Assembly: GCA_964489445.1 (NCBI GenBank)
Contig: CAZAYU010000001.1
Span: 375,968 to 439,967 of the forward strand
Direction of reading: 5' to 3'
DNA: 64,000 nucleotides
Source: an uncultured Planctomycetia bacterium
GTDB lineage: Bacteria; Omnitrophota; Gorgyraeia; Duberdicusellales; 4484-171
This document shows, piece after piece, positions 15,964 to 52,874 of this stretch. Position 1 is the stretch's first letter, and the number at the start of each line of letters is the position of its first letter. Below the pieces are notes generated by a model. The model was not told the origin of the DNA and did not search any database. It saw only the letters and a list, made by a program, of their open reading frames with translations. A program made the position numbers and the translations under genes.

Positions 15964-17256
15964 CTACAACAACTTAAATCTTTTATAAATTTTATCAATA
16001 TTAGATAAATAAGAATAGGGATTGAAAATTTCTTCCAATTCTGGTTTACTCAAAAATTTCATCAATTTTTTATCCTTTAAAGAAACTTCTTTAAAACTAG
16101 ACTTTTGATTAATGACATCTAAAGCTATTTTTTGAACAATATCATAAGCGCTAATCCTAGATAGCCCTTTACCCATCAGCTTAACAAGAATTTTTTGTGA
16201 ATAAACAATCCCGCGATTTAATTCCATGTTTTTAACCATACTCTGGCTATTAGTTTTTAGCCCCTTAACAACTTCCCGGAATTTTTTAAGCATATAGCTT
16301 ATTGCTGCAGTAGAATCTGGTAAAATAACTCTCTCAGCTGAAGAATGAGAAATATCCCGTTCATGCCATAAATTTATATTTTCAAAGGCAACCAGCATGT
16401 TTCCTCTTAAAATTCGGGCTAATCCACAAATTCGTTCACAAATAACCGGATTCTGTTTGTGCGGCATTGCACTGGAGCCCTTCTGCCCCTTATAAAAAGG
16501 TTCGCTAGCTTCAGCTACTTCACTTCGTTGTAAATGCCTTATCTCTGTAGAAAATCTTTCTAATGTCGACCCCAATAAAGAAACTACCGATAGATAATAA
16601 GCAATTCTTTCCCGGGAAACTACTTGTGTAGAAACTAAAGCGTTATTAATCCCTAGCTTTTTACAGATATACTCTTCTACTCGCGGATTAAAATAAGCAA
16701 AAGTTCCTACTGCTCCAGATACCTTTCCGCAACACACAACCTTTAAACTCTCAGAAAGCAATTTTCTCTCTTCACATAAATCATTATACAAATAAAGAAA
16801 TTTTAAACCGAAGCTGTAAATTTCTGCATGCATTCCGTGAGTTCTGGCCATGCATAATGTATCTTTGTATTGAAGCGCTTTTCTTCGAACATCAGTAATA
16901 ACTAAATCTAAATCCTTGAGTATAGCTTCACTGACATCTTTTATCTGCCAAGCTAATGTAGTGTCCAAAAGATCGGAAGAGGTTATCCCTAAGTGTAAGT
17001 ACTGAGCATCCTTTCCTAATTGCGGAGAAATATGTTTTAAAAAAGCAACAATATCGTGATGGGTTTTTTGTTCAATCTTTTTTATTTTCTGAGGCGAAAT
17101 TTTAACTTTATCAAACGCTTTGGCTGCTGATTTGGGAATTTTCTTTTCTCGGGCCAAAGCCTCACAAAGCAATTGCTCGATCCTTAAAAATCGCTTAAAT
17201 TTCTCTTCATCAGTCCAAATTCTACTAATTTCTTTAGGTGCGTAACGTTCAATCAT
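15964..17256 (-). CDS. purB: Adenylosuccinate lyase
   Basis: Fumarate-lyase family (GSSAMPHKQNP signature); 430 aa. Confidence 0.9.
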   Translation of the reverse strand: MIERYAPKEISRIWTDEEKFKRFLRIEQLLCEALAREKKIPKSAAKAFDKVKISPQKIKKIEQKTHHDIVAFLKHISPQLGKDAQYLHLGITSSDLLDTTLAWQIKDVSEAILKDLDLVITDVRRKALQYKDTLCMARTHGMHAEIYSFGLKFLYLYNDLCEERKLLSESLKVVCCGKVSGAVGTFAYFNPRVEEYICKKLGINNALVSTQVVSRERIAYYLSVVSLLGSTLERFSTEIRHLQRSEVAEASEPFYKGQKGSSAMPHKQNPVICERICGLARILRGNMLVAFENINLWHERDISHSSAERVILPDSTAAISYMLKKFREVVKGLKTNSQSMVKNMELNRGIVYSQKILVKLMGKGLSRISAYDIVQKIALDVINQKSSFKEVSLKDKKLMKFLSKPELEEIFNPYSYLSNIDKIYKRFKLL

Positions 17257-17301
17257 AAAACCCTCTTTTCCTGTTAGTGCTTTTAATCTGCTTTCCCGCC
17301 A

Positions 17302-18541
17302 TTAATCATAATCAAAGCATGTAGCTCCACAAAAATTTGATTCATTGCTACTATTGTCCTGATTCCACAACGTCCAATCATTACCTGTTTTGGATACCTT
17401 ACAAAAACAATCAAATCCTCCAGGACCGCCAACTGCAGATAATACACAAAAGTCATGTTCGCCCATATTTGTTGTTTTTGTGCCTGTGATCCTTATAGTA
17501 TTAGAATATTCTGTAGTCGTAAACGAAGATGCTCCACCAAAATCTTTCCAACCTCCACCATCATGATATTTGAAATTAGTATCAACACTATCATAATAAA
17601 TACTACCTGCGCTGCCAGTAGGAGCGCTGGCTTGCGGTTCAAGGTTCAATGTGCCTTCACCGGCCGCTTATTTCAAGTGTCGCTTTCGGATCATCTGTGT
17701 TAATCCCTACCCTCCCATCACTCGTTCCGGTATCTTTTATTCTCATGGTTTCTGCTGAATTCTTTGTGAATAATATTATGTCGGAAGCCTCATCGTTGGG
17801 AGAACTCTTTATATACAGATTTTTATCGTTATGGTGAGTCCAAATTCCACCCTTAAACACGCCTCCTGGACCCCAAAGCCCCAGCCCACAATTAGATGTA
17901 CCATCATCCTCTATACGTATTGCTACAGCATCACTACCATTGCTTGTTCCTTTAATGTGCAGCAACATTTGTGGATCCGTTGTCCCAATGCCGACATTGC
18001 CCTGGTCTGCTCCAGAAGCACCTGTCTGCATATAAATTGGATACTGTCTACCTGTTCCAGACTGCTCTCCTGTATTTAAAATAATCCCGCCTCCCTTAAA
18101 ATTAGTAATCTGTAAATCATAAGGCACAGTGCCTGTATCAGCAACCCAAACCCCGGCTAACTGGCTTCCGTCATTTATATCCATTTCATCGCTAACAGTA
18201 AAACCATAGCAATTACTACCAGTTTGCTTTAAATCGCCAAAAGATAGGTACCCATTGCCCATTGCTATCTGCAAGCGAATGTCAGCACTACCTGGCGCTA
18301 CCCCATCTGAAATCTCTGCTCCCCATTCAGGCATAGGCGTCTCAACATATTCATCACCAATTGCCATTCTTCTTGATCGCAATTCATTATAAATCCCATA
18401 AGGCGCAGGATAATAGGTAATAATTGTAATCTTTTCTTCAGGGATGGTTGTTTCGGCAAAGGAAGACAGAGAAAACATTACTGACAGTAAAAATACGCTT
18501 ACTGAAAAATAAACAATATTCTTTCGAAGAAATAATTTCAT
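17302..18541 (-). pseudogene. Disrupted member of the secreted Gly-rich 'TTIPEERITIITYYPAPYG' paralog family (two ORFs, 17657-18541 and 17302-17649)
   Basis: The upstream ORF ends ...ATLEISGR at a TGA (17657-17659). The downstream ORF, frame-shifted by 7 nt, continues the alignment to the paralog at 18563-20062 (NLEPQASAPTGSAGSIYYD vs ESDVNPGDAGDLYYD). The downstream ORF starts on TTG. Confidence 0.6.
17950..18470. repeat. About 500 bp direct repeat (>90% nt identity) shared by the 5' halves of the tandem paralogs; the partner copy is at about 19470-19970
   Basis: Example: 18231-18290 vs 19751-19800 are near-identical, and 18330-18410 vs 19843-19925 are about 97% identical. Confidence 0.8.
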
Positions 18542-18562
18542 AACTTATCCTCCTTTTTACAA

Positions 18563-20062
18563 TTATCGATAACCGATAATATATATAGATCCAAAAGCAT
18601 TTTTTGTAGTTGAATTTCCTGTCCGTTCAACATACACCTTTTTTCCTGTGGTAACCGGTAACCAGAAATGGTCCGAATTTGTTACCCACGCACTATTGTC
18701 GTATAGCTTATAAAACATATAATTTGCATATTTTTTTGATCCCTCTTTGGTGTAAATCTTTAAAGTCACATTGCCACTACCCAAAGTTCCGCCAATTGAG
18801 GTGTATGCATAAAACAATACCTCCTTAGCATTGGCCGGAACATAAGAGCTGAAACTCTTGACAAAAGAAGAACTAGCGGTAAGTATCGGAAGAACTCCTA
18901 ACAATTTTTTTCCTATGGGAGTCCATGATTTATCCCCTCCAAAATCATTCCAGCTCGTTCCATCGTGATACCGAAATCTATCAGAATCAATGTCATAATA
19001 AAGATCGCCGGCATCACCAGGATTAACGTCTGATTCTGCTTTGGGAGTATAACGTGCCTTTCCATCGAGATAAATGTTTCCTTTAAAATAACCAGCCCAA
19101 TAATTATCCGTATAATCTTTATAACTTAACATGGCGACAGTATTAGGTATCGATGAGCCTATGATTGTCGTTGATTCCATATGGGTTGCAAGTCCAGCAT
19201 TACCTTTAATGTCGTTGACCACCCCAAAAAGACCAAGAGCATGTTCACTTCCTGTGAAACCTCCAACTGCTAAAGCTCCCCGGGTAATTTTATCTGTTGC
19301 GGTATTTGTGTAGGCAACAATACCCGACACTCCACCATCTTTTTTTATCTTAAACTCATTAATTTTCACGCCCATACCTACCGGATAATCACTTCCAAAA
19401 GGAGAAGGAACATCAAACAATCCAGTGCTAATAGTTACATCAATATCGTTTGAATTTTCGATTATCTGCAGCGTTCCTTTAGGATCAACTGTTCCAATAC
19501 CTACATTGCCAGCTGGTAAGGCTCCTGAATCTGTGTATGTTTGCATACAAATTGGATATGGTCTACCTGTTGCAGAATCCTCTTTCGTATTTAAAATAAT
19601 CCCGCCACCAATAAAATTAGTAATCTGTAGATCATAAGGCACAGTACCTGTATCAGCAACCCAAAACCCGGCTAACTGGCTTCCGGCATCTATGTCCATT
19701 GCATCGCTAACAACAAAACCATAACAATTACTACCAGTTTGCTGTAAGTCGCCAAAAGATAGATACCCATTGCCCATTGCTATCTGCAAGCGAATATCAG
19801 CTGTGCTCCCAGAACCATCTGGAATATCCGTTCCCCATTGAGGCATAGGCGTCTCAACATATTCATCGCCAATTGCCATTCTTCTTGATCGCAATTCATT
19901 GTAAATCCCATAAGGCGCAGGATAATAGGTAATAATTGTAATTCTTTCTTCAGGAACACTTGATGCGGCAAAAGAAAAAACAGGAAGTATCAAGAAAGAT
20001 AAAAACATTAATGCTAAACAAAGGCTTAATCTTTTACTCATTATTTTTCCCTCTTTTCTCAT
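18563..20062 (-). CDS. Secreted Gly-rich repeat protein, paralog family member (putative surface fibre/adhesin)
   Basis: Signal peptide (...PVFSFA), then SSVPEERITIITYYPAPYGIYNELRSRRMAIGD, GNVGIGTVDPKG repeats, and the C-terminal LYYDIDSDRFRYHDGTSWNDFGG motif. The true start is probably the internal MSKRL. Confidence 0.7.
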   Translation of the reverse strand: MRKEGKIMSKRLSLCLALMFLSFLILPVFSFAASSVPEERITIITYYPAPYGIYNELRSRRMAIGDEYVETPMPQWGTDIPDGSGSTADIRLQIAMGNGYLSFGDLQQTGSNCYGFVVSDAMDIDAGSQLAGFWVADTGTVPYDLQITNFIGGGIILNTKEDSATGRPYPICMQTYTDSGALPAGNVGIGTVDPKGTLQIIENSNDIDVTISTGLFDVPSPFGSDYPVGMGVKINEFKIKKDGGVSGIVAYTNTATDKITRGALAVGGFTGSEHALGLFGVVNDIKGNAGLATHMESTTIIGSSIPNTVAMLSYKDYTDNYWAGYFKGNIYLDGKARYTPKAESDVNPGDAGDLYYDIDSDRFRYHDGTSWNDFGGDKSWTPIGKKLLGVLPILTASSSFVKSFSSYVPANAKEVLFYAYTSIGGTLGSGNVTLKIYTKEGSKKYANYMFYKLYDNSAWVTNSDHFWLPVTTGKKVYVERTGNSTTKNAFGSIYIIGYR

Positions 20063-20124
20063 ATAGCTTATTATACATACCCAACATAAAAAATAAATAA
20101 AAATTATTTAATTTTTAACACTAC

Positions 20125-20940
20125 TTAACAAAAACTCTCTTTAGATGAAGGAAAGCTCTGATTTTGAGTGTTTCTTATAAATTTTTTAACAGCCTTTTCT
20201 ATTTCTAAAGACAAATCAAGGTAAGATCTGGCAAATTTTAACTTTTTCCCGGAAAGGCCTAAAAAATCATACAATACTAACACTTGCCCGTCACAATGTT
20301 TTCCCGCACCAATGCCAATAGTTGGAATTTTTAGCTCTTTAGTTATCCTCGCAGATAAAGAAAGAGGAATACATTCTAAGATAAGGCTAAATATACCCAA
20401 ATCCTGCAATTTTTTTGCTTGGCTTAATAGGTTAGACGCCGAATCATCATCTCTGCCCTGCACTTTATACCCACCGAGAATGTGAGCGCTCTGAGGAGTT
20501 AATCCGATATGCCCCATTACCGGTATTTTTTCCCGAACTAAACATTTAACAACATAAAGACATTTATCAAACCACTCAATTTTTACTGCCTGTGCTCCAG
20601 CAGAAATAAATTTACGCGCCTGTTCAACACACTTTTTTGGATTTCTTTGATAGGCAACATACGGCATATCGGCTACAACTAGCGCTCTGTTTATTACTTT
20701 AGCTACCGCTTGCGTGTGATTTATCATTTCTTTTAATGAAACTTTCCGGGTTTCTTTTAAACCTAAAACTACATTAGCCAAAGAATCACCTACCAAAATT
20801 ATATCTAAGTTTGTTCTATCCAAAATTTTAGCAAAAGAATAATCATAACAGGTAAGCACTACAATTTTTTCCTTACCTTTCTTTCTGATAATATCTTTAA
20901 CTGTTACTTTATCCATCGTAGCCTCCCTGCAAAAACACAA
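20125..20940 (-). CDS. panB: 3-methyl-2-oxobutanoate hydroxymethyltransferase
   Basis: PanB family similarity (VVLTCYDYSFAKI..., GHIGLTPQS). Confidence 0.9.
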   Translation of the reverse strand: MCFCREATMDKVTVKDIIRKKGKEKIVVLTCYDYSFAKILDRTNLDIILVGDSLANVVLGLKETRKVSLKEMINHTQAVAKVINRALVVADMPYVAYQRNPKKCVEQARKFISAGAQAVKIEWFDKCLYVVKCLVREKIPVMGHIGLTPQSAHILGGYKVQGRDDDSASNLLSQAKKLQDLGIFSLILECIPLSLSARITKELKIPTIGIGAGKHCDGQVLVLYDFLGLSGKKLKFARSYLDLSLEIEKAVKKFIRNTQNQSFPSSKESFC

Positions 20941-21284
20941 TCAAGGATAAAGGATAAAGGTTAAAGGAAAAATTCAAAGTTCGAATAATCTGTTTATAAT
21001 CAATGGCGCAAAAAACAGTTTTTGAGGGACGCTTTGAGGTCAAAAAGCACGGTATCGCCCCTGCACTAAATAAACAGCGATTTTTTGGCCGAAACGCGAG
21101 GCAAAATTCACGCTGGGGATTTTGCCGTTCTCGAAAAAATTGTTTTTGCGTCTTCATTGCCGGTATAGACATATCCTCCGCATCATACATCTAGCTTTAT
21201 CTTTTTTCCGCATGAATTATCAACTACTAATTTTCCTAAGACTACTCGTTGCACCTTGCAAACTAAGTCTCAGAATAAACTTTC

Positions 21285-22277
21285 TTACTCAAATACATAT
21301 ACCCGTTCACCTTGCCCCTCATTACAAACAGCAAAAACCCTCATCGTAGAAATATTCTTGGCCAGAAATTTTCTAATTCCTTCCAGGCCCATAACCGAAA
21401 AAGCAGTAGCTAGACTATCGGTAGTAGTACAATTTTTGCTAATTACACTCACACTCAAAAGACTATTATCTACAGGGTACCCAGTGAGAGGATTAATCAA
21501 ATGGGAATAACGTTTATCCTGATAATCAAAAAATTGTTCATAATTTCCCGAAGTAGACACTGACTCATTCAGTAGCTGCTGATTTTCAATTATTCCTGAT
21601 AATTTTTGTGGATCTCTAACGCCGATATTCCATGTTTTCCCTCTGTTAGTCCCTAGGCAATAGATATCTCCTCCGGCGTTAATCATTGCGTTCTCGACAC
21701 CCTGCTCTTTTAATTTCAAAACTGCTTTATCTACCATATACCCTTTGGCTATCGCGTTTAAATCAACCTTGAGCCCTTGCTTGCTAATGAGTACTGTTTT
21801 ATTCTTTTTATCTATTTTAAGATAGTCCATACCACATTTCTCAGCTAACTTATTAATTTTTTGCTTATCCGGAAATTGCTGAACTCCTTCTTTAATTAAT
21901 TTTTTCCAAAAATCATAAAGCACACCATAGCTTACATCAAACGCACCGCCAGTTAAGCTGGTTAACTGTCTGGACAAGCCTAAAATTTCAATCATCTCAT
22001 CAGAGACTTTCATCGGAATATTATAAGTGTTATTTAATCGAGAAATTTCCGAATCCGGATCGTAAAGATTAAAAATCTTATTCAATCGCTGAAACTCTTT
22101 ATACACAATACCGGCGGCTGGTTTATCAGAAGAAATAACTTCTAAATATGTGCCAGAAACAACGAAAGTATTTTTATGCACTGGAATCGAGCAAGAAGAC
22201 AAAAAGAATAAAACACAAAATAACGCGCCTATTCTTTTAATTTTTTTCACATACATAAAATATCCCATATTATTCAA
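21285..22277 (-). CDS. apbE: FAD:protein FMN transferase ApbE (lipoprotein)
   Basis: Lipobox (LSSCS). ApbE family similarity (FDVSYGVL..., AIAKGYMVDKA). Confidence 0.85.
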   Translation of the reverse strand: MNNMGYFMYVKKIKRIGALFCVLFFLSSCSIPVHKNTFVVSGTYLEVISSDKPAAGIVYKEFQRLNKIFNLYDPDSEISRLNNTYNIPMKVSDEMIEILGLSRQLTSLTGGAFDVSYGVLYDFWKKLIKEGVQQFPDKQKINKLAEKCGMDYLKIDKKNKTVLISKQGLKVDLNAIAKGYMVDKAVLKLKEQGVENAMINAGGDIYCLGTNRGKTWNIGVRDPQKLSGIIENQQLLNESVSTSGNYEQFFDYQDKRYSHLINPLTGYPVDNSLLSVSVISKNCTTTDSLATAFSVMGLEGIRKFLAKNISTMRVFAVCNEGQGERVYVFE

Positions 22278-23085
22278 GTCTTATTTCTGCGCATTTTTTT
22301 AATATTATCTGTCGAGAATCCGCCACATGAACACCTCTGGTTTTGCCCACAGTCAATACTACCGCATTACTAATAGTAAGCTTTCCCGTGGAAGTTATAT
22401 ATAATCCATTAGGCCTAATATTCTTGCTGTGATCCAAAACTACATCTGTATCAATTATCATATCTTTACCTATGTCCGGACAGTCAGGATCAGCAAAATC
22501 AGCTAACCCATCACAATCATTATCTTTTTTATCCAAACAAAGACACCCTTCTTCAAAGTGTAATCCTGCTGCATCCACACGGCAAGCTGTTAACTCGCTA
22601 ATACCGGAAGTTGAAGGGTGTTTAGATGGGGTAGAAGAATTGCAATCACAATAAGAATTACTACTTCCTGGGTTCACCAATGGATTATCACCATCACAAT
22701 CATTACATTGGTCAACATAGCCGTCTTTATCATTATCTGCGCTTTGTCCAGATTGAGGACAACCTGCAGGTGTGCATGTAGAGCAACAAGTCTGATAACA
22801 AGTCTGGTAGCAAGTCTGGTAGCAAGTCTGGCAATTTTCACCTTTAGCATCACAATCACAATCATAAGGATCACAATCATAAGGATTACAATCATAAGGA
22901 TTACAATCATAAGGGGTATCTGTGCAGCTAGTATCTACCCCCGTATCTGCATAGTAAACATTACCGACACATTTCCCATTCTCCCCAGCATTACACTGTT
23001 TAGTACGAGTATCACAAGCATACATCGCCGAGACAAAAAACAACATTAGCGCAATTGTAATAAAAATAATTTTTCCGTTTTTCAT
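22270..23085 (-). CDS. Secreted Cys/Asp-rich tandem-repeat protein (calcium-binding-like)
   Basis: Signal peptide, then (PYDC[ND])x4 and (QTCY)x4 repeats and DxDxDG-like motifs. Overlaps the apbE start by 8 nt. Confidence 0.65.
   Translation of the reverse strand: MKNGKIIFITIALMLFFVSAMYACDTRTKQCNAGENGKCVGNVYYADTGVDTSCTDTPYDCNPYDCNPYDCDPYDCDCDAKGENCQTCYQTCYQTCYQTCCSTCTPAGCPQSGQSADNDKDGYVDQCNDCDGDNPLVNPGSSNSYCDCNSSTPSKHPSTSGISELTACRVDAAGLHFEEGCLCLDKKDNDCDGLADFADPDCPDIGKDMIIDTDVVLDHSKNIRPNGLYITSTGKLTISNAVVLTVGKTRGVHVADSRQIILKKCAEIRLE
22787..22834. repeat. 12-nt tandem repeat, about 4 units (caagtctggtag), in-frame, encoding QTCY
   Basis: Read directly from the sequence. Confidence 0.85.
22857..22916. 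repeat. 15-nt tandem repeat, 4 units ([ct]acaatcataaggat), in-frame, encoding PYDC[ND]
   Basis: Read directly from the sequence. Confidence 0.85.
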
Positions 23086-23142
23086 CTGTTCTCCTTTTTC
23101 TCGTATATCTCCTTAATTGAAGATACATCTCATTATAAAAAA

Positions 23143-24627
23143 TTATTTTATTAAAATTTCAACTTTTTCTTTGCCTTCTTCTGAATCTTCTAAGGCAATC
23201 CCCACAACTTGAGTAAATATTGTAATTTTATTAACATCTCCCCGCATTGCATAACCTAATTTAGAAGAAGTAACCAAAATATCTCCTTTTTTAACCGGGG
23301 GAACTATTTTGCAATCTACTATTCCATCTAAAGCTAACGGTTTAAGATCCTCACCTTCCTGTTCACCTAAAAGTAAAGATGGTTTTTCTGAGATAACTCC
23401 GGCAACTACTGCTGAATAAGGTTCACTATTTTTTTTAAATTCATTATCATCATTTCCGCCTACCACCACGACATCTCCTGGCTCACATTCCTCACATTTT
23501 ATATTTTCAGCAATATCTCCCTTAATTGTGGAACAAAAAAGAGTGCCGTCTAATCGAATGTCACCCTTAATATCTAATTCTTTCTCAGGATTAGATATTC
23601 CAATACCTACATTACCCTCTTTAGAAATCCATACCCTATCCTTGTGAGATGTTTGGAACCGAATAGGCTCGGCGGCGGCTGTCTTCATTACTAAACCTTT
23701 ACCACCACTAGCAGCAGCTGCAAAGATAGCACCAATATAAGAACCTGAACGGGAAAACAACACCCCAGAATTTTCGCCACCCACAGAATCAATAAATATG
23801 CCTGTATCTTTATCGCTTTTAATATGTAATTTTTGCAGCGGGTTAATAGTCCCGATTCCCACATTACCACCTTTTATAATTGATATACCCTCTCCGTTAT
23901 TTACATCGTCGGCGCTATGGCCAATGCAAATTAAACCGTCTAAATAATCAGAATAGTTAATAGACACCGACTCAGAAAAAACTTTACCTACCGCTAAACC
24001 AACAAAACCACCACTAGGTAATTGAGGTGCAAAAAAAGATGCAATATTTTGAGAATAAGGTTTATTACTTTCCACAGATAACAATTGCCTGGGATCAGTC
24101 GTCCCAATGCCTACATTTCCAAGCTCAATACCGTCACTACCCCAGTTTTGCATGCAAATCGGCTTGCTGTCTCCTTCTAAATATAAAGGGCCCGTACTTG
24201 CTACAGCCATTCCAGCCTCACCCCCGCCATTAATAGAACTCTGCCACCAAACACCCCCACCTGTACTAGCGGTACTAATACTTTGTGTATTGCCAATATG
24301 TAGCCCAACTCCAGTGTCAGAATTCATAGGATTACTATATCCGCCTAAAGAAACATACCTGTTAAGAGCAGAGACCTGCAAACGAATATCCGGTGTTATG
24401 CTTGAAGCTCCGACATCCCATCCAAAAAGATTAGGACTATCAATATAATTGTCTCCAATAGCTACCCTTCTTGCCCGCAATTCATTATACACCCCATAAG
24501 GAGCCGGATAATAAGTGATAATTGTAATTCTTTCTTCAGGGATGGTTGTTTGGGCAAGCACCGGAATAATCCAAATTATTAACATGCTAAACACAAAACT
24601 TAAAATTAATACCCGTTTTTCTTTCAT
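23143..24627 (-). CDS. Secreted Gly-rich repeat protein, paralog family member
   Basis: Signal peptide (...IPVLA), then QTTIPEERITIITYYPAPYGVYNELRARRVAIGD and three GNVGIG(T/I)xxP repeats. The C-terminal region is divergent. Confidence 0.7.
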   Translation of the reverse strand: MKEKRVLILSFVFSMLIIWIIPVLAQTTIPEERITIITYYPAPYGVYNELRARRVAIGDNYIDSPNLFGWDVGASSITPDIRLQVSALNRYVSLGGYSNPMNSDTGVGLHIGNTQSISTASTGGGVWWQSSINGGGEAGMAVASTGPLYLEGDSKPICMQNWGSDGIELGNVGIGTTDPRQLLSVESNKPYSQNIASFFAPQLPSGGFVGLAVGKVFSESVSINYSDYLDGLICIGHSADDVNNGEGISIIKGGNVGIGTINPLQKLHIKSDKDTGIFIDSVGGENSGVLFSRSGSYIGAIFAAAASGGKGLVMKTAAAEPIRFQTSHKDRVWISKEGNVGIGISNPEKELDIKGDIRLDGTLFCSTIKGDIAENIKCEECEPGDVVVVGGNDDNEFKKNSEPYSAVVAGVISEKPSLLLGEQEGEDLKPLALDGIVDCKIVPPVKKGDILVTSSKLGYAMRGDVNKITIFTQVVGIALEDSEEGKEKVEILIK

Positions 24628-24641
24628 ACTCCCCCCGTTAT

Positions 24642-24681
24642 TATTTCCCGCCGAAGGCGGATCCGCCTTCGGCGGGAAATA
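24642..24681. promoter_or_regulatory. 40-bp perfect GC-rich palindrome with nested sub-hairpins, 14 nt upstream of the SD/ATG of the 23143-24627 gene and downstream of queF
   Basis: tatttcccgccgaaggcggatccgccttcggcgggaaata. No U-tract follows on either strand. Confidence 0.5.
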
Positions 24682-24853
24682 GTTAAATGGTTAATCTTTA
24701 TTGTGCTTAGGGATTACTAAGGATTATGGATTATGTGATAAGAAATAGAAACCAAAAACATTTCGGTTTGGCTTAATTTTTCTCTTCTTAGCCTCATCCT
24801 TCGTCCCTCTTCCATCATCTATCGTCCGTCTTTCATCATCTGTCTTTACTGCT

Positions 24854-25315
24854 TTACCCTCTCTTGGCCTTTCTCTTCTCCCGATATACGGCAGTTACCT
24901 TATTCTCAATACCCCCCCTTGAAGTAAACTCTCCTTCTAGGGTAATTTCGCGTGGTTTTAATATCTTAATTAAATCTTCTAAAATTTTATTTACTGCATG
25001 CTCATTATACACTTTTACATTACGAAAAGAATAAAGATAATACTTTAACGCTTTAAGCTCAACAAGCTTACAATTTGGAACGTAGTTTATAGACAAACAG
25101 GCAAAATCAGGCAATCCGGAAAAAGGACATAAGCAAGTAAACTCTCGACTAGTTAACTTAACGGCAATCAACTGTTTTGGATATTTATAGTTTAAACTTT
25201 TAAGTATCGTCGGGTCAATATCATCAACCGTAAATGTATCCCCTAAAGTATTCTTGGCCTTTTCCTCTATAGAGATGACTTCGCGATCCTCATAAATCAT
25301 ATTTGGTCTCCTCAT
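24854..25315 (-). CDS. queF: NADPH-dependent 7-cyano-7-deazaguanine reductase
   Basis: QueF type I catalytic region (CLCPFSGLPDF); 153 aa. Confidence 0.85.
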   Translation of the reverse strand: MRRPNMIYEDREVISIEEKAKNTLGDTFTVDDIDPTILKSLNYKYPKQLIAVKLTSREFTCLCPFSGLPDFACLSINYVPNCKLVELKALKYYLYSFRNVKVYNEHAVNKILEDLIKILKPREITLEGEFTSRGGIENKVTAVYREKRKAKRG

Positions 25316-25385
25316 TGTATACTATCATTAGATTAAAGATACCGAAACAAAAAAACACTATTTCTCTCCCATTGTCACGGTTAAG

Positions 25386-26126
25386 CTAACTTACCAAAGC
25401 AGTATCCGGCAAATTAAGTAAATCAAAAAATTCAAAATGGTATGATAAGAATCTTCCTAAAATATTGAAAATTTCTTTTTCACAGCGCAAACTAAAATTC
25501 AATCTTAGCACTAAAGAGAAATCTGTGTTTTGGATATATGCCAGCGAACGCGATGTTTCGTTGCTTACTCCTTGAGCATCATCAAGACTAGGATAGCATT
25601 TTTCACAAACTAAACCTCCTTTAGAGACACTGAAAAAAATTTCCCTGCCCAATACGCTATTACAGCCAATGCAATGATTAAGCTCTGGTTTAAACCCGGA
25701 AAAAGTCAAAAATTTTATTAAAAAAATACACAATATCTTATTTTCCTTTTCATTACTCAACAAGCTTAAGCTTTTACCCAAAAGACTAAATATAAAGCAA
25801 TTTCTATCCCAGGGTTGCATAGTTTTATCCACAATATTAAGCATAATTGAAGCTATTTTAGCTTTAGAAAAACTTTTGCGCAAGAATGAGTACTCGGATA
25901 TTAAATCAACGTACGATATAAGCCAAATTTCGCTTTTTTTCGGATAAAATACAAACTCATTTAGACTAAAACTGTCCAGAGGAGAAGAAAATTCCTTTTT
26001 TTGAGTATAAAAACCCTTCAATATTCCTGCAATTTTCCCAAATTTTTCTGTATACAAATTAACAATTAAACTTGTATCTCTAAAATTATAGCGCCTCAAA
26101 ACAAAGCCTTTATCTTTTTCAATCAT
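25386..26126 (-). CDS. recO: DNA repair protein RecO
   Basis: RecO N-terminal OB fold and a C-terminal Cys4 (CIGC...CEKC). Confidence 0.8.
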   Translation of the reverse strand: MIEKDKGFVLRRYNFRDTSLIVNLYTEKFGKIAGILKGFYTQKKEFSSPLDSFSLNEFVFYPKKSEIWLISYVDLISEYSFLRKSFSKAKIASIMLNIVDKTMQPWDRNCFIFSLLGKSLSLLSNEKENKILCIFLIKFLTFSGFKPELNHCIGCNSVLGREIFFSVSKGGLVCEKCYPSLDDAQGVSNETSRSLAYIQNTDFSLVLRLNFSLRCEKEIFNILGRFLSYHFEFFDLLNLPDTALVS

Positions 26127-45514: not shown

Positions 45515-46816
45515 CTAAGGACCACAACAAACTGTAATCTGATAACCATGGCCACTATCCCCCGTCCTACTATCATCAAGATTACTAAAAAATCCTATTG
45601 TTTTCGGACCTTCTTTGGTTGGCGCCCAAGAAGGACAATCATGTCCCGTCCTTTTTAATACGCAGAAACCACCAGATAACTGCCCAAAATCTTTCCAACT
45701 GAATGCATCATGGTAATTGAATTTATCATCATCCGTATTATAGATAAGTGATCCTTCCGCGGGATTTGGAATCGCATCCCGTTTATTTTTAGCCATCCGA
45801 GGAGGAACAAACCCACTGGTAGTAGAAGTTATATCAAGTACTGCTTTAGGGTCTGTCGTTCCAATGCCGACATTGCCCTCTCTTTTTATGATCATTTGTG
45901 TAGTTTGAGGCTGCGCTGCAGCAGGCCATTTGGGGGTAGTCACAAAATGTAAATCTTGAAGAACTCCGATAGCAAAATCCCCCTTTTTCATATCACTGCC
46001 AAAAGCCGTATCGTATGTTCCTGTGCCCAACCAGCCACCACCATTAGAACCAGGAATACCACTACCTGAACTTTCAAACCAAAGCCCAGCTGTCTTTGCT
46101 TCTCCTCCGTCCGGCAAAGTGGTCCCGTCAGCAATAAAAACAGCTGTGTAATCAAGGCCTCCAATATTTTTTCCTATTACCTGAAGCACTGGTTCTGGTG
46201 AACCAGACCCATCCTTACTAGTAATTATTACATTTGCTCCCGGATAAGTGTTGCGAACAGAGTCTGTAGCCCGAAAATAATGCCGTTCAGCATCATAATA
46301 TATGGAATTAGACACGGAGGTACCATTTCCGTCTTTACCATATGAACCAAAAATCTCCATGTTTGTCCCGCCGTTTCCATCTGTATGACCAAAAGTTATA
46401 GTATCATTGCTTTGCCTTGCACCACTATTTCCAGAAACAAGGAGAAAGGTTCCATCAGGATTACTTGAGTTTGTATAAGAAGCACTCAATAAATAATTTG
46501 AGGCGTTTGTAGTACCGATTCCTAATCCATTAGCTATCAATGCCTGACCTCTTTTATCTAAATCAGTAGGATCAGGGGCATCATCAATATCTATATCTCC
46601 GCTGGCATTAGTATCTCCTACGCCTAAAGTTCTAGTTACTAAACGGTTATACACACCAAAAGGCGCAGGGTAATAAGTAATAATTGTAATTCTTTCTTCA
46701 GGGATGGTTGTTTGGGCAAAAGAAAAAATAGGAAACATCAAGAAAGATAAAAGCATAAACAATAAACAAAATATTAATCTTTTATTCATTATTTTTCCCT
46801 CCTTTTTTTTACACAT
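45515..46816 (-). CDS. Secreted Gly-rich repeat protein, paralog family member
   Basis: Signal peptide nearly identical to the 18563-20062 copy (KEGKIMNKRL...IFSFA). Then QTTIPEERITIITYYPAPFGVYN, GNVGIGTTDPKA, and a C-terminal LIYNTDDDKFNYHDAFSWKDFG motif with a Cys-rich tail (...VCCGP). Confidence 0.7.
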   Translation of the reverse strand: MCKKKEGKIMNKRLIFCLLFMLLSFLMFPIFSFAQTTIPEERITIITYYPAPFGVYNRLVTRTLGVGDTNASGDIDIDDAPDPTDLDKRGQALIANGLGIGTTNASNYLLSASYTNSSNPDGTFLLVSGNSGARQSNDTITFGHTDGNGGTNMEIFGSYGKDGNGTSVSNSIYYDAERHYFRATDSVRNTYPGANVIITSKDGSGSPEPVLQVIGKNIGGLDYTAVFIADGTTLPDGGEAKTAGLWFESSGSGIPGSNGGGWLGTGTYDTAFGSDMKKGDFAIGVLQDLHFVTTPKWPAAAQPQTTQMIIKREGNVGIGTTDPKAVLDITSTTSGFVPPRMAKNKRDAIPNPAEGSLIYNTDDDKFNYHDAFSWKDFGQLSGGFCVLKRTGHDCPSWAPTKEGPKTIGFFSNLDDSRTGDSGHGYQITVCCGP

Positions 46817-51647: not shown

Positions 51648-52874
51648 CTAACCTTCACCGTTGACTAAAAAGTTAATTGCCTCTTCTTTTTTGAAGCTTC
51701 TCTTCTCTTTTGTCCTCCTAATCTCTAAATCAATAATTTTATCTTTTAAGTATTTTTTCCCCAAAATTAAAATATACGGATTTCCGATAAGATAGGCATC
51801 ATTAAACTTAACCCCGGCGCTTTCTTTACGATCATCAATCAACACAGATAACCCGTTTTTTTCCAAAGCCCTTTCAATGTCCAAGGCTTCACCTAACAAC
51901 GCTTTATCCAAAACTACCAAACTAACGCTATAGGGAGCAATACTCTTCGGCCAAACTAATCCTTTTTCATCCGAATTAATTTCAGCAACAGCCGAAAGTA
52001 TCCTGCTTACACCAATCCCGTAGCAACCCATAATAAACGGTTTTCTTTTGCCTTGTTCATTAAGAAAAAAAGCATTTTGAGCCACTGAATACTTAGGACC
52101 TAATTGAAAAATATGCCCCACCTCAACCACTTCTTTCTTGATCAATTGACCACCGCAAAGACTACAGTCAGATTCTTTGCTAAAATATTTACCACATTTT
52201 TCACAATAAAAAGCACTATCTTCTCCGATTTTGGAAGGAACCATAAACTCATGAGATACGCTACCACCCATGGCTCCAGAATCTGCTTCAAATTTTATAA
52301 AATCAAGTTCACACTCTTGGAATATTTTTTTGTAAGCATCAAGCATTTTCTGATAATTTTTCTCAAGACCCTGGATATCTTTATCGAAGCTATAGCCATC
52401 CTTCATCATAAACTCACAACTTCTCATTACTCCAAATCGCACCCTCGGCTCATCTCGAAACTTTGTCTGAATTTGATAAAGAATAAACGGAAGCTGCCGA
52501 TAAGAAAAAACATAGCGTTTAACAATCTCCGTAATTTCTTCTTCATGGGTAGGTCCTAAACACAATTCTCTGTTCTTACGATCTTGAAATTTAAACATAA
52601 CTTCATCTAAATCTTTATCCCGGCCTGTTTTTTTCCATATTTCTAAAGGCTGAAGAGCGCTCATGAATAATTCCTGAGCACCCTCGGCATTCATATTCTT
52701 GCGAATAATCTTACTTATATTATTTAACACCCGATAACCTAAAGGTAAATAAGTATACACTCCCGATGAAACCATAAATAAGAAACAACCTTTTAGCAAG
52801 TATTTATGGCTTTGACACTCCGCAGTCTTCGGATCTTCTCTCAGAGTAAAAATAAAACTTTCAGAAAATAACAT
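51648..52874 (-). CDS. proS: Prolyl-tRNA synthetase (compact, lacks the INS editing domain)
   Basis: N-terminal similarity to bacterial ProRS (SGVYTYLPLGYRVL). Class II core; 408 aa. Confidence 0.85.
   Translation of the reverse strand: MLFSESFIFTLREDPKTAECQSHKYLLKGCFLFMVSSGVYTYLPLGYRVLNNISKIIRKNMNAEGAQELFMSALQPLEIWKKTGRDKDLDEVMFKFQDRKNRELCLGPTHEEEITEIVKRYVFSYRQLPFILYQIQTKFRDEPRVRFGVMRSCEFMMKDGYSFDKDIQGLEKNYQKMLDAYKKIFQECELDFIKFEADSGAMGGSVSHEFMVPSKIGEDSAFYCEKCGKYFSKESDCSLCGGQLIKKEVVEVGHIFQLGPKYSVAQNAFFLNEQGKRKPFIMGCYGIGVSRILSAVAEINSDEKGLVWPKSIAPYSVSLVVLDKALLGEALDIERALEKNGLSVLIDDRKESAGVKFNDAYLIGNPYILILGKKYLKDKIIDLEIRRTKEKRSFKKEEAINFLVNGEG

What the first reader, a model, noticed from the sequence alone, without database searches (positions are those of the whole stretch)
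17302..24627. Paralogous family of secreted Gly-rich proteins with an invariant N-terminal module: candidate variable surface-fibre/adhesin locus
Four genes (17302-18541 disrupted, 18563-20062, 23143-24627, 45515-46816) encode proteins with the same layout. A Sec signal peptide is followed by an almost invariant ~35-aa segment, (Q/E)TTIPEERITIITYYPAPYG(V/I)YNELR.RR.AIGD. Then come divergent Gly/Ser/Thr-rich regions punctuated by 'GNVGIGTTDP(K/Q)..L.I' units. From memory, these units resemble the repeat unit of tail-fibre / endosialidase-chaperone-type beta-helical fibre proteins. In three members the protein ends in a shared 'YYD..D..F.YHDG..W.DFG' motif plus variable Cys-containing tails. This predicts a conserved anchoring or export module, a variable shaft and a variable tip. 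Two copies are tandem, and a Cys-rich repeat protein and an ApbE lipoprotein sit between the two clusters. A genomic region like this is rarely seen among housekeeping genes. I do not recognise the N-terminal module as any described sorting signal.
Basis: partly seen in the sequence, partly recalled or inferred. Interest (0 to 1): 0.75.

Follow-up and report, generated by a model that had tools for sequence, protein, structure and literature searches.

The report
Secreted tail-fibre-like adhesin family of Omnitrophota
Four genes in this window encode exported, phage-tail-fibre-like proteins of the kind the predator Bdellovibrio uses to grab prey, and all begin with a short, undescribed N-terminal tag found in thousands of proteins that, as far as sampled, come only from the uncultured phylum Omnitrophota.

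Summary
Four minus-strand genes (one frameshifted) share a signal peptide followed by (Q/E)TTIPEE(R/K)ITIITYYPAP(Y/F)G.YN.L. After it come Gly-rich regions with GNVGIGT..P...L units.

They are relatives of the Bdellovibrio 'mosaic adhesive trimer' (MAT) fibres and of phage tail fibres:
- The last 124 aa of 18563-20062 match the Bd2133 tip crystal structure (E 3e-12).
- The shaft of 23143-24627 matches the Bd2133 beta-helix and phage tail-fibre PHROGs.
- 28 of 105 full-length relatives end in the Peptidase_S74 chaperone.

The N-terminal tag hits 4,820 protein clusters, and in the best 150 it always lies directly after the signal peptide. All 78 genome loci examined are Omnitrophota-type MAGs. 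The tag is absent from 2.9 million viral contigs, matches no Pfam or NCBIfam model, and appears in no searchable paper.

The genes sit singly in conserved slots between housekeeping genes, with no conserved partner gene.

Best reading: small trimeric surface fibres for host or prey attachment, with the tag as the proximal cap or docking end. That role is inferred. The MAT paper already listed one Omnitrophica example, so this is a new variant of a known kind.

The parts
18563..20062 (-). Fibre paralog 1 (499 aa; probably 492 aa from the second ATG). Order: signal peptide, N-module, degenerate first repeat, one GNVGIG unit, collar motif, Bd2133-type tip.
   Evidence: ORF; alignment; PDB matches.
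19865..19966 (-). N-module of paralog 1 (residues 33-66, ASSVPEERITIITYYPAPYGIYNELRSRRMAIGD).
18566..18937 (-). C-terminal beta-sandwich tip of paralog 1 (residues 376-499), homologous to the Bd2133 MAT fibre tip.
   Evidence: 8OK3 E 3.3e-12 and 8OND E 1.4e-11 over residues 376-499.
17302..18541 (-). Fibre paralog 2, split by a one-base frameshift near 17650-17660. 17657-18541 (294 aa) carries the signal peptide, N-module and two GNVGIG-type units. 17302-17649 (115 aa) carries the collar motif and a 5-Cys tail.
   Evidence: the same frameshift is in at least 14 contigs; 57% identical to paralog 1.
18353..18454 (-). N-module of paralog 2 (residues 30-63).
23143..24627 (-). Fibre paralog 3 (494 aa). 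Order: signal peptide, N-module, three GNVGIG units 84 aa apart, C-terminal chaperone domain.
24451..24552 (-). N-module of paralog 3 (residues 26-59).
23146..23517 (-). phi29 gp12-type (Peptidase_G2-like) intramolecular chaperone domain of paralog 3 (residues 371-494). It starts with the invariant D-x-A-E (DIAE).
45515..46816 (-). Fibre paralog 4 (433 aa; probably 424 aa from the second ATG). Order: signal peptide, N-module, long Gly/Ser/Thr/Asn-rich region, one GNVGIG unit, GFVPPRM-collar segment, 4-Cys tail.
   Evidence: A precomputed PF26696 'PTL_trimer' hit is on record for this product.
46613..46714 (-). N-module of paralog 4 (residues 35-68).
45683..45883 (-). GNVGIG unit, GFVPPRM segment and collar motif of paralog 4 (residues 312-378). 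This segment is shared with P0013 at 50% identity.

Best explanation
The four genes belong to a very large family of small (median about 300 aa), Sec-exported, phage-tail-fibre-like proteins. In the genomes sampled here the family was found only in Omnitrophota. It follows the same design as the Bdellovibrio MAT fibres.

Proposed path, step by step:
1. The signal peptide takes the chain across the inner membrane. It is cut after an Ala, leaving (Q/E)(E/D)x-ITITTYYP(A/S)P(Y/F)G.Y.EL as the extreme mature N-terminus. (Inferred from sequence.)
2. Three chains fold into a beta-helical shaft built from GNVGIGT..P...L units. In many members folding is nucleated from the C-terminus by an intramolecular chaperone that then cuts itself off. 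This is a G2/phi29-gp12-type domain in 23143-24627 and S74 in many relatives. (Homology is shown; trimerisation and cleavage are inferred.)
3. Other members keep a C-terminal binding module. Examples are the Bd2133-type beta-sandwich in 18563-20062 and the small Cys-rich knobs in 45515-46816 and 17302-17649.
4. The invariant N-module is the proximal cap of the fibre. It most likely docks every paralog onto one conserved cell-surface structure of the Omnitrophota cell. The variable distal parts bind surfaces of host or prey cells. (Inferred by analogy.)

New variants arise in fixed genomic slots. This happens by duplication and by exchange of a 5' cassette made of the Shine-Dalgarno sequence, the signal peptide and the N-module.
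For: Homology to MAT fibres:
- Tip of 18563-20062 matches Bd2133 crystal structures 8OK3/8OND (E 3e-12).
- Shaft of 23143-24627 matches the 8OND beta-helix (E 1.4e-5) and 8ON4.
- Shaft also matches tail-fibre PHROGs 9942 and 18345 (E 1.6e-12 and 2.6e-8).
- MAT proteins are surface-displayed trimers with a conserved N-terminal end and mosaic tips, either S74 or non-S74 (PMC10769870).

Chaperone domains, which are known from obligate trimers:
- 28 of 105 N-module proteins end in Peptidase_S74.
- Relative P0205 passes the Pfam Peptidase_G2 threshold on the same domain.
- phi29 gp12* ends at residue 691 after loss of this domain, and the phi29 chaperone is released autoproteolytically.
- Another relative, P0160, carries UspA1 trimeric-adhesin head repeats.

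N-module:
- 4,820 cluster representatives at E <= 1e-3, and in the best 150 it always lies at residues about 17-70.
- Position-specific logo with invariant E, TYYP, P, G, Y.
- 113 of 139 carry GNVGIG units, so it marks fibres rather than assorted cargo.
- All 78 genome loci are Omnitrophota-type MAGs, and several genomes hold 4-6 copies with different C-terminal classes.

Not phage:
- No confirmed match in IMG/VR.
- Neighbours are housekeeping genes.

Docking analogy: the first 32 residues of phi29 gp12 are what fasten that spike to the collar.

Mosaic evolution:
- Codon identity at identical residues is 64-74% in the module against 31-48% elsewhere.
- The 5' cassette of 18563-20062 and 45515-46816 is about 83% identical from -13 to +140, then drops to about 47%.
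- Fibre genes of different size occupy the panB-purB slot in related species.

Lifestyle: Omnitrophota are inferred to be host-dependent or predatory (PMC10066038).
Against: - No experiment exists, and no multimer model could be run. The monomer model of the full-length protein was unusable (pLDDT 44).
- The docking partner is unknown, and no conserved neighbour gene was found in 78 loci.
- The N-cap (about 35-60 aa) is much shorter than the roughly 130-aa N-domain of Bdellovibrio MATs. Homology between the two could not be tested.
- These proteins are much shorter than Bdellovibrio MATs (about 200-600 aa against 626-1,900 aa).
- Minimal members would keep only about 90 aa after S74 cleavage. 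That fits poorly with a simple anchor-shaft-tip picture.
- Export across an outer membrane is unexplained.
- Assignment of the window itself to Omnitrophota rests on the fibre homologues and on 68-74% similar synteny blocks. No marker-gene phylogeny was done.
Confidence: 0.62

Rival explanations
1. The N-module is a sorting or processing signal, not a structural docking end. A dedicated Omnitrophota machinery, such as an outer-membrane translocon or a maturation peptidase, would recognise it. This would resemble the way prepilin leaders or LPXTG / PEP-CTERM tags work.
For: - It has a strictly fixed position 1-3 residues after the predicted signal-peptidase site, with an invariant Glu.
- It is restricted to this lineage in the genomes sampled and occurs in thousands of proteins.
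- Related fibres of other lineages have different short leaders at the same place.
- Minimal members consist of little else.
Against: - It is tied almost only to one cargo type, GNVGIG fibres (113 of 139). Known sorting tags serve varied cargo.
- No co-located candidate sorting enzyme was found in 78 loci.
- Its second half (RMAIGD.Y) looks like a degenerate shaft unit. By inspection, this suggests it is part of the folded fibre.
Confidence: 0.18
2. The N-module is only a folding or trimerisation cap for the N-terminal end of the beta-helix and has no attachment role. The fibres would be released or loosely associated, for example as matrix, self-adhesion or envelope-coat proteins, rather than serving as host or prey adhesins.
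For: - The cap is short, with aromatic and Pro-rich residues next to the first repeat.
- No partner gene was found.
- Many members are very small.
- No direct evidence ties them to host contact.
Against: - Members with a C-terminal intramolecular chaperone already have a folding nucleus at the other end.
- Extreme conservation of one short motif across thousands of otherwise diverging paralogs suggests a common binding partner.
- The Bd2133-type tip and UspA1 head repeats are adhesin modules.
Confidence: 0.15
3. The genes are remnants of a prophage, tailocin or contractile injection system, that is, real phage tail fibres.
For: - Tail-fibre PHROG hits.
- phi29 gp12-type and S74 chaperones are typical of phage fibres.
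Against: - All have Sec signal peptides.
- No phage structural genes flank them; neighbours are purB, panB, apbE, queF, trpS and scpA.
- The N-module has no confirmed match in 2.9 million viral contigs.
- They hold conserved positions in core synteny across species.
Confidence: 0.03

Closest known systems
Bdellovibrio bacteriovorus MAT (mosaic adhesive trimer) fibres, e.g. Bd2133 (Caulton et al. 2024, PMC10769870; PDB 8OND, 8OK3, 8ON4)
   Same: - Signal peptide, then a family-wide conserved N-terminal end, then a GNVGIG-type beta-helix shaft, then mosaic C-termini.
- Both chaperone-terminated and chaperone-free subgroups exist.
- Multi-copy and scattered in the genome.
- Direct sequence homology of shaft and of one tip.
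- One Omnitrophica protein is already listed as a MAT in Supplementary Table S3 of that paper.
   Different: - The N-terminal element here is a cap of about 35-60 aa with the motif ITITTYYP(A/S)PYG.Y.EL. The Bdellovibrio element is a beta-rich domain of about 130 aa.
- Proteins are 2-4 times shorter.
- A G2/phi29-type chaperone is used besides S74.
- Surface display, trimerisation and ligand binding are untested here.
Phage phi29 pre-neck appendage gp12 (Peptidase_G2; PDB 3GQH, 3SUC)
   Same: - That domain starts with a D-x-A-E signature.
- gp12 is a trimeric spike whose C-terminal domain is shed.
- gp12's short N-terminus fastens it to its carrier.
   Different: - Cellular and Sec-exported.
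- No pectate-lyase-like gp12 body.
- The Pfam G2 score of the window protein is below threshold (12.7 against 25 bits).
- Cleavage has not been shown.
Phage tail fibres and endosialidase-type fibres with the Peptidase_S74 intramolecular chaperone
   Same: - GNVGIG shaft units hit tail-fibre PHROGs.
- 28 of 105 N-module relatives end in S74.
   Different: - None of the four window proteins has S74.
- No phage context.
Trimeric autotransporter adhesins (YadA / UspA1 type)
   Same: - Modular trimeric surface adhesin logic.
- One N-module relative carries UspA1 head repeats.
   Different: - No C-terminal YadA-type membrane anchor was detected in any window protein.
- Here the conserved end is N-terminal.

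Membership tests
MAT fibre superfamily (Caulton et al. 2024) | N-terminal Sec signal peptide | tested here: met
   Positive n-region, hydrophobic h-region and an A-x-A-like site in all four proteins. This is a heuristic check, not SignalP. The same architecture is seen in 139 relatives.
MAT fibre superfamily (Caulton et al. 2024) | Conserved beta-rich N-terminal domain (about 130 aa) directly after the signal peptide | tested here: inconclusive
   A conserved N-terminal element is present directly after the signal peptide, but it is only about 35-60 aa. Full-length Bdellovibrio MAT sequences could not be obtained (one search found nothing), so homology is untested.
MAT fibre superfamily (Caulton et al. 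2024) | Shaft of beta-helix repeats homologous to solved MAT fibres | tested here: met
   23143-24627 against 8OND Bd2133, E 1.4e-5, two stretches, plus 8ON4.
MAT fibre superfamily (Caulton et al. 2024) | Mosaic C-terminal tips, either S74-terminated or non-S74 | tested here: met
   Bd2133-type tip in 18563-20062. G2-type chaperone in 23143-24627. Cys-rich knobs in two others. S74 in 28 of 105 relatives.
MAT fibre superfamily (Caulton et al. 2024) | Homotrimeric fibre displayed on the cell surface | not testable with these tools
   No multimer prediction was available, and the monomer model failed (pLDDT 44). Trimerisation is inferred only from trimer-specific chaperone domains.
Peptidase_G2 intramolecular chaperone (phi29 gp12 C-terminal domain) | Fold of the gp12 C-terminal fragment | tested here: met
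   [not shown]
Peptidase_G2 intramolecular chaperone (phi29 gp12 C-terminal domain) | Pfam PF11962 score above the gathering cut-off | tested here: not met
   23143-24627 C-domain scores 12.7 bits against a 25-bit cut-off, E 0.083. Relative P0205 scores 40.5 bits on the same domain, so the link is transitive.
Peptidase_G2 intramolecular chaperone (phi29 gp12 C-terminal domain) | Autoproteolytic release after trimer assembly | not testable with these tools
   An invariant D-x-A-E sits at the domain start in 22 of 22 aligned members. That this matches the G2 signature is from my own knowledge.
Peptidase_S74 (chaperone of endosialidase) | PF13884 domain at the C-terminus | tested here: not met
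   No Pfam hit in any of the four window proteins at E <= 1. It is present in relatives.
Phage tail fibre (part of a virion or prophage) | Phage genomic context, or presence in viral contigs | tested here: not met
   The N-module has no confirmed match in IMG/VR. Neighbours are housekeeping genes.
Described protein-sorting signals (lipobox, prepilin leader, sortase- or exosortase-type tags) | Match to a curated model or motif | tested here: not met
   No Pfam or NCBIfam family for any window protein. No Cys at the cleavage site. No paper contains the motif.
Trimeric autotransporter adhesins | C-terminal YadA-type beta-barrel anchor | tested here: not met
   No such Pfam domain in the window proteins.

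The most novel reading that the evidence does not exclude
The motif (Q/E)(E/D)x-ITITTYYP(A/S)P(Y/F)G.Y.EL at the mature N-terminus is a phylum-wide docking or sorting tag. It defines a so-far undescribed surface-display system of Omnitrophota. Thousands of interchangeable mini-fibres would plug into one conserved, still unidentified cell-surface receptor or translocon. That partner would be a handle on how these uncultured ultra-small bacteria attach to hosts or prey.
Probability: 0.3. Interest if true: 0.7.

Novelty: new variant of a known kind. Interest (0 to 1): 0.45.

Why it matters
Omnitrophota are uncultured, mostly ultra-small bacteria thought to depend on or prey on other cells. So far, attachment has been discussed in terms of type IV and Tad pili and giant ORFs.

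This work shows that they also carry a very large repertoire of small MAT-like fibres. The N-module alone hits 4,820 clusters at 50% identity. The fibres diversify in fixed genomic slots and share a unique N-terminal tag.

The tag gives three things:
- a simple sequence marker to count and classify these fibres across genomes;
- a short bait peptide to look for the surface structure that holds them;
- a second, independent lineage for testing the idea from Bdellovibrio that mosaic trimeric fibres underlie recognition of other cells.

It also shows that a phi29-type G2 chaperone, not only S74, is used by cellular fibres of this class.

Tried and rejected
- Pfam, NCBIfam and PADLOC-free family scans of the six local proteins gave no family.
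- The AlphaFold monomer of full-length 18563-20062 was unusable (pLDDT 44). This is expected for an obligate trimer with a shallow alignment.
- A word-indexed search with the 44-aa N-module profile returned only short fragments. The exhaustive HMM search was needed.
- A search with the Bd2133-like tip, meant to retrieve full-length Bdellovibrio MATs, found nothing. The N-domain comparison therefore could not be made.
- A profile of the C-domain of 23143-24627 against PDB sequences found nothing. Only fold comparison revealed gp12.
- The search for a conserved neighbour gene, as a candidate partner, in 78 loci was negative. The best cluster was in 8 of 78 loci, and all were housekeeping or HTH genes.
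- Prophage origin is rejected.
- Programmed +1 frameshifting at 17650-17660 was considered. There is no slippery or prfB-like site and the P-site codon is CGG, so a fixed pseudogene or a truncated product is more likely.
- The promoter and terminator scan of 17000-25400 was no better than shuffles.
- Rfam found nothing in the window.
- Literature searches for the motif and for PF26696 / PTL_trimer gave nothing.

Full report
**1. Observation**

- Each begins with a typical Sec leader: a positive n-region, a hydrophobic core of at least 12 residues, and (S/V)(F/L)A before the cut. There is no lipobox and no other TM-like segment.
- The nearly invariant segment (Q/E/S)(T/S)(T/S)(I/V)PEE(R/K)ITIITYYPAP(Y/F)G(V/I)YN.L follows directly. 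It occurs exactly four times in a six-frame scan of the window.
- GNVGIG-type units occur one to three times per protein. In 23143-24627 they are exactly 84 residues apart.
- The motif Y(Y/N)..D..F.YHD...W.DFG is present in three members.
- Mature regions hold 12-14.5% Gly against 5.7% in neighbouring housekeeping proteins.
- 17302-18541 is broken by a single extra base in GGCCGG near 17650-17660. The same break is present in at least 14 contigs from at least five metagenomes. It is therefore a property of the population and not an assembly error.

**2. What the proteins are**

No Pfam or NCBIfam family matches any of them. Solved structures do.
- The last 124 residues of 18563-20062 align end to end with the beta-sandwich tip of Bd2133 (8OK3, E 3.3e-12; 8OND, E 1.4e-11).
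- The repeat region of 23143-24627 aligns with the beta-helix part of the same structure (E 1.4e-5) and with 8ON4.
- Bd2133 belongs to the 'mosaic adhesive trimer' (MAT) fibres of Bdellovibrio bacteriovorus. These are surface-displayed trimers with a signal peptide, a conserved N-terminal domain, a long beta-helical shaft and interchangeable tips. Thirteen end in the self-cleaving S74 chaperone and eight do not (PMC10769870).
- The shafts also hit phage tail-fibre PHROGs (E 1.6e-12 and 2.6e-8).

**3. The C-terminal domain of 23143-24627**

This domain (residues 351-494) is shared by 116 of the 258 retrieved relatives.
- It was modelled with good confidence (pLDDT 84.7).
- That gp12 domain is an intramolecular chaperone released by self-cleavage. 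Mature gp12* ends at residue 691.
- The window protein scores below the Pfam Peptidase_G2 threshold (12.7 bits). Relative P0205 passes it (40.5 bits) on the same domain.
- All 22 aligned members start the domain with D-x-A-E.
- So this 'tip' is most likely a folding device that is removed, not a receptor-binding module.

Among 105 full-length proteins that carry the N-module, 28 end in Peptidase_S74. One carries UspA1-type trimeric adhesin head repeats. These are all hallmarks of obligate trimeric fibres.

**4. The N-terminal module**

- A 44-column profile finds 4,820 cluster representatives (1,032 at E <= 1e-10) among 1.84 billion. In all of the best 150 it lies at about residues 17-70, right behind the signal peptide.
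- The logo is: h-region, (F/A)(A/Q)(Q/E), E-x-I-T-I-T-T-Y-Y-P-(S/A)-P-(Y/F)-G-x-Y-x-E-L-R-x-x-R-M-A-I-G-D-x-Y. E, TYYP, P, G and Y are invariant.
- The mature protein would start one to three residues before the ITITT strand. In the window's subfamily a short TTIPEE extension precedes it.
- 113 of 139 representatives carry GNVGIG units. The module therefore marks this fibre class rather than diverse cargo.
- By inspection, its second half (RMAIGD.Y) looks like a degenerate shaft unit. I therefore read it as the proximal cap of the fibre.
- In a scan of one genome per GTDB species, at least 458 stretches encode it. All 78 best loci are Omnitrophota MAGs; some are labelled 'uncultured Planctomycetia' by their depositors. 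Several copies occur per genome, with differing lengths and C-terminal classes.
- It has no confirmed match in 2.9 million viral contigs. No searchable paper contains it.
- Related secreted GNVGIG fibres from other lineages have other short leaders at the same place, such as AQ(T)NTFP(A/S)SGNVGIGTT and AQWTTNGNNI.NTN.GNVGIGT. The N-cap therefore appears to be lineage-specific.

**5. Genomic setting and evolution**

- The window matches, at 100% identity over the stretches retrieved, a 214-kb JGI metagenome contig and contigs from several ENA assemblies.
- Everything around the four genes is housekeeping: purL, purB, panB, apbE, queF, recO, ybeY, aspS/hisS-type synthetases, dnaE, guaA, guaB, folD, trmD, tgt, ruvB, scpA, trpS and infB.
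- In 78 loci from other genomes no neighbour is conserved. The best cluster is in 8 of 78 loci, and the neighbours are ordinary housekeeping genes.
- The positions themselves are conserved. Species whose purB is 72-74% identical also carry an N-module gene between panB and purB, or next to queF. There it is a minimal 212-233-aa gene.
- Within the window, 18563-20062 and 17657-18541 are tandem duplicates (57% identity; 85-90% DNA identity over 455 nt).
- Between distant paralogs, codons for identical residues are identical in 64-74% of cases inside the module but 31-48% elsewhere.
- 18563-20062 and 45515-46816 lie 26 kb apart. They share about 83% DNA identity from the Shine-Dalgarno sequence to position +140, after which identity falls to about 47%. 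This points to exchange or conversion of a 5' cassette. It fits the 'mosaic' evolution proposed for MATs.

**6. Mechanism proposed**

Shown:
- Sec-type leaders.
- Homology of shaft, one tip and one chaperone domain to MAT and phage fibres.
- A multi-copy, lineage-restricted and position-fixed N-module.
- A non-phage genomic context.

Inferred:
- The proteins trimerise.
- The chaperone domains self-cleave.
- The fibres are displayed on the cell.
- The N-module fastens all paralogs to one conserved surface structure. This is analogous to the first 32 residues of phi29 gp12, which fasten it to the collar, and to the presumed role of the MAT N-domain.
- The distal parts bind host or prey surfaces, in line with the host-dependent or predatory lifestyle inferred for Omnitrophota.

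Rival readings of the N-module are a sorting or processing tag, or a mere folding cap. They cannot be excluded.

Minimal members consist of signal peptide, N-cap, one repeat and S74. They would leave only about 90 residues after cleavage, which suggests the N-cap region has a function of its own.

**7. Comparison with what is known, and novelty**

- The fibre kind is known. The MAT paper's Supplementary Table S3 already lists one Omnitrophica protein (A0A2H0LB00, 'S74-like') among 'diverse MAT proteins'.
- As far as the searchable literature shows, the following are not described: the N-terminal module, its size and phylum-wide spread, the small size of these fibres, the use of a phi29/G2-type chaperone, and their fixed slots in core synteny.
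- I file this as a new variant of a known kind.
- Membership in MAT is met for signal peptide, shaft and mosaic tips. It is inconclusive for the N-domain, because Bdellovibrio sequences could not be retrieved. It is untestable here for trimerisation and surface display.

**8. Verdict**

It needs correction on one 'tip', on S74, and on the supposed oddity of the genomic setting.
- Interest is moderate. It is a solid and useful family definition with an unexplained, sharply conserved N-terminal tag, but it is not a new kind of system.

Noticed in passing
window 1-64000: 53 of 54 ORFs of at least 150 aa lie on the minus strand. The single plus-strand one (52104-52559) sits inside a minus-strand ORF. 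This is extreme one-strand gene orientation over 64 kb.
   Followed up: no
window 22270-23085 (-): A 271-aa secreted Cys-rich protein with tandem DCNPY and CYQT repeats and Asp-rich DNDKDGY..CNDCDGDNP motifs. It has no Pfam, NCBIfam or PHROG family. It lies directly downstream of the 23143-24627 fibre gene in two other samples as well.
   Followed up: partly
window 24648-24675: A perfect GC-rich palindrome (CCGCCGAAGGCGGATCCGCCTTCGGCGG, flanked by TTTC/GAAA) lies 21-48 nt upstream of the start of 23143-24627, in the queF intergenic region. It is unique in the window. It has no T-run, so it is not a classic terminator. It could be a 5'-UTR element.
   Followed up: partly
window 17650-17660: The one-base frameshift that splits the fibre gene 17302-18541 is identical in at least 14 contigs from at least 5 samples. 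Both halves are otherwise open. This suggests recent inactivation or expression of a truncated 294-aa fibre.
   Followed up: partly
window 45515-46816; P0013: The source database records a hit of Pfam PF26696 'PTL_trimer' on this product and on P0013. That family is missing from the local Pfam copy and from the searchable literature. The two proteins share the segment GNVGIGT..P.AVLD..STTSGFVPPRM...RD.I..P.EGS.
   Followed up: partly
L076 5905-6567; L065 5929-6567; L017 5893-6594: Related species carry minimal N-module genes (212-233 aa) in the same panB-purB and queF slots. Two of them are just signal peptide, N-cap, one GNVGIN unit and an S74 chaperone. The mature product would be about 90 aa.
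   Followed up: partly
P0160 (relative, 555 aa): The N-module is fused to UspA1-type trimeric-autotransporter head repeats (PDB 3PR7, E 1.5e-19) and to the G2-like chaperone domain. This shows that shaft and head modules from different adhesin classes are combined behind the same N-cap.
   Followed up: partly
window 18563-20062 and 45515-46816, 5' ends: A cassette of about 150 nt (Shine-Dalgarno sequence, signal peptide and N-module) is about 83% identical between two genes 26 kb apart, with sharp drops to about 47% on both sides. In the signal-peptide part, 18 of 19 codons for identical residues are the same.
   Followed up: yes
window 1-64000: No Rfam family reaches its gathering threshold anywhere in the 64 kb, so there is no Rfam-detectable RNA gene or riboswitch.
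   Followed up: no
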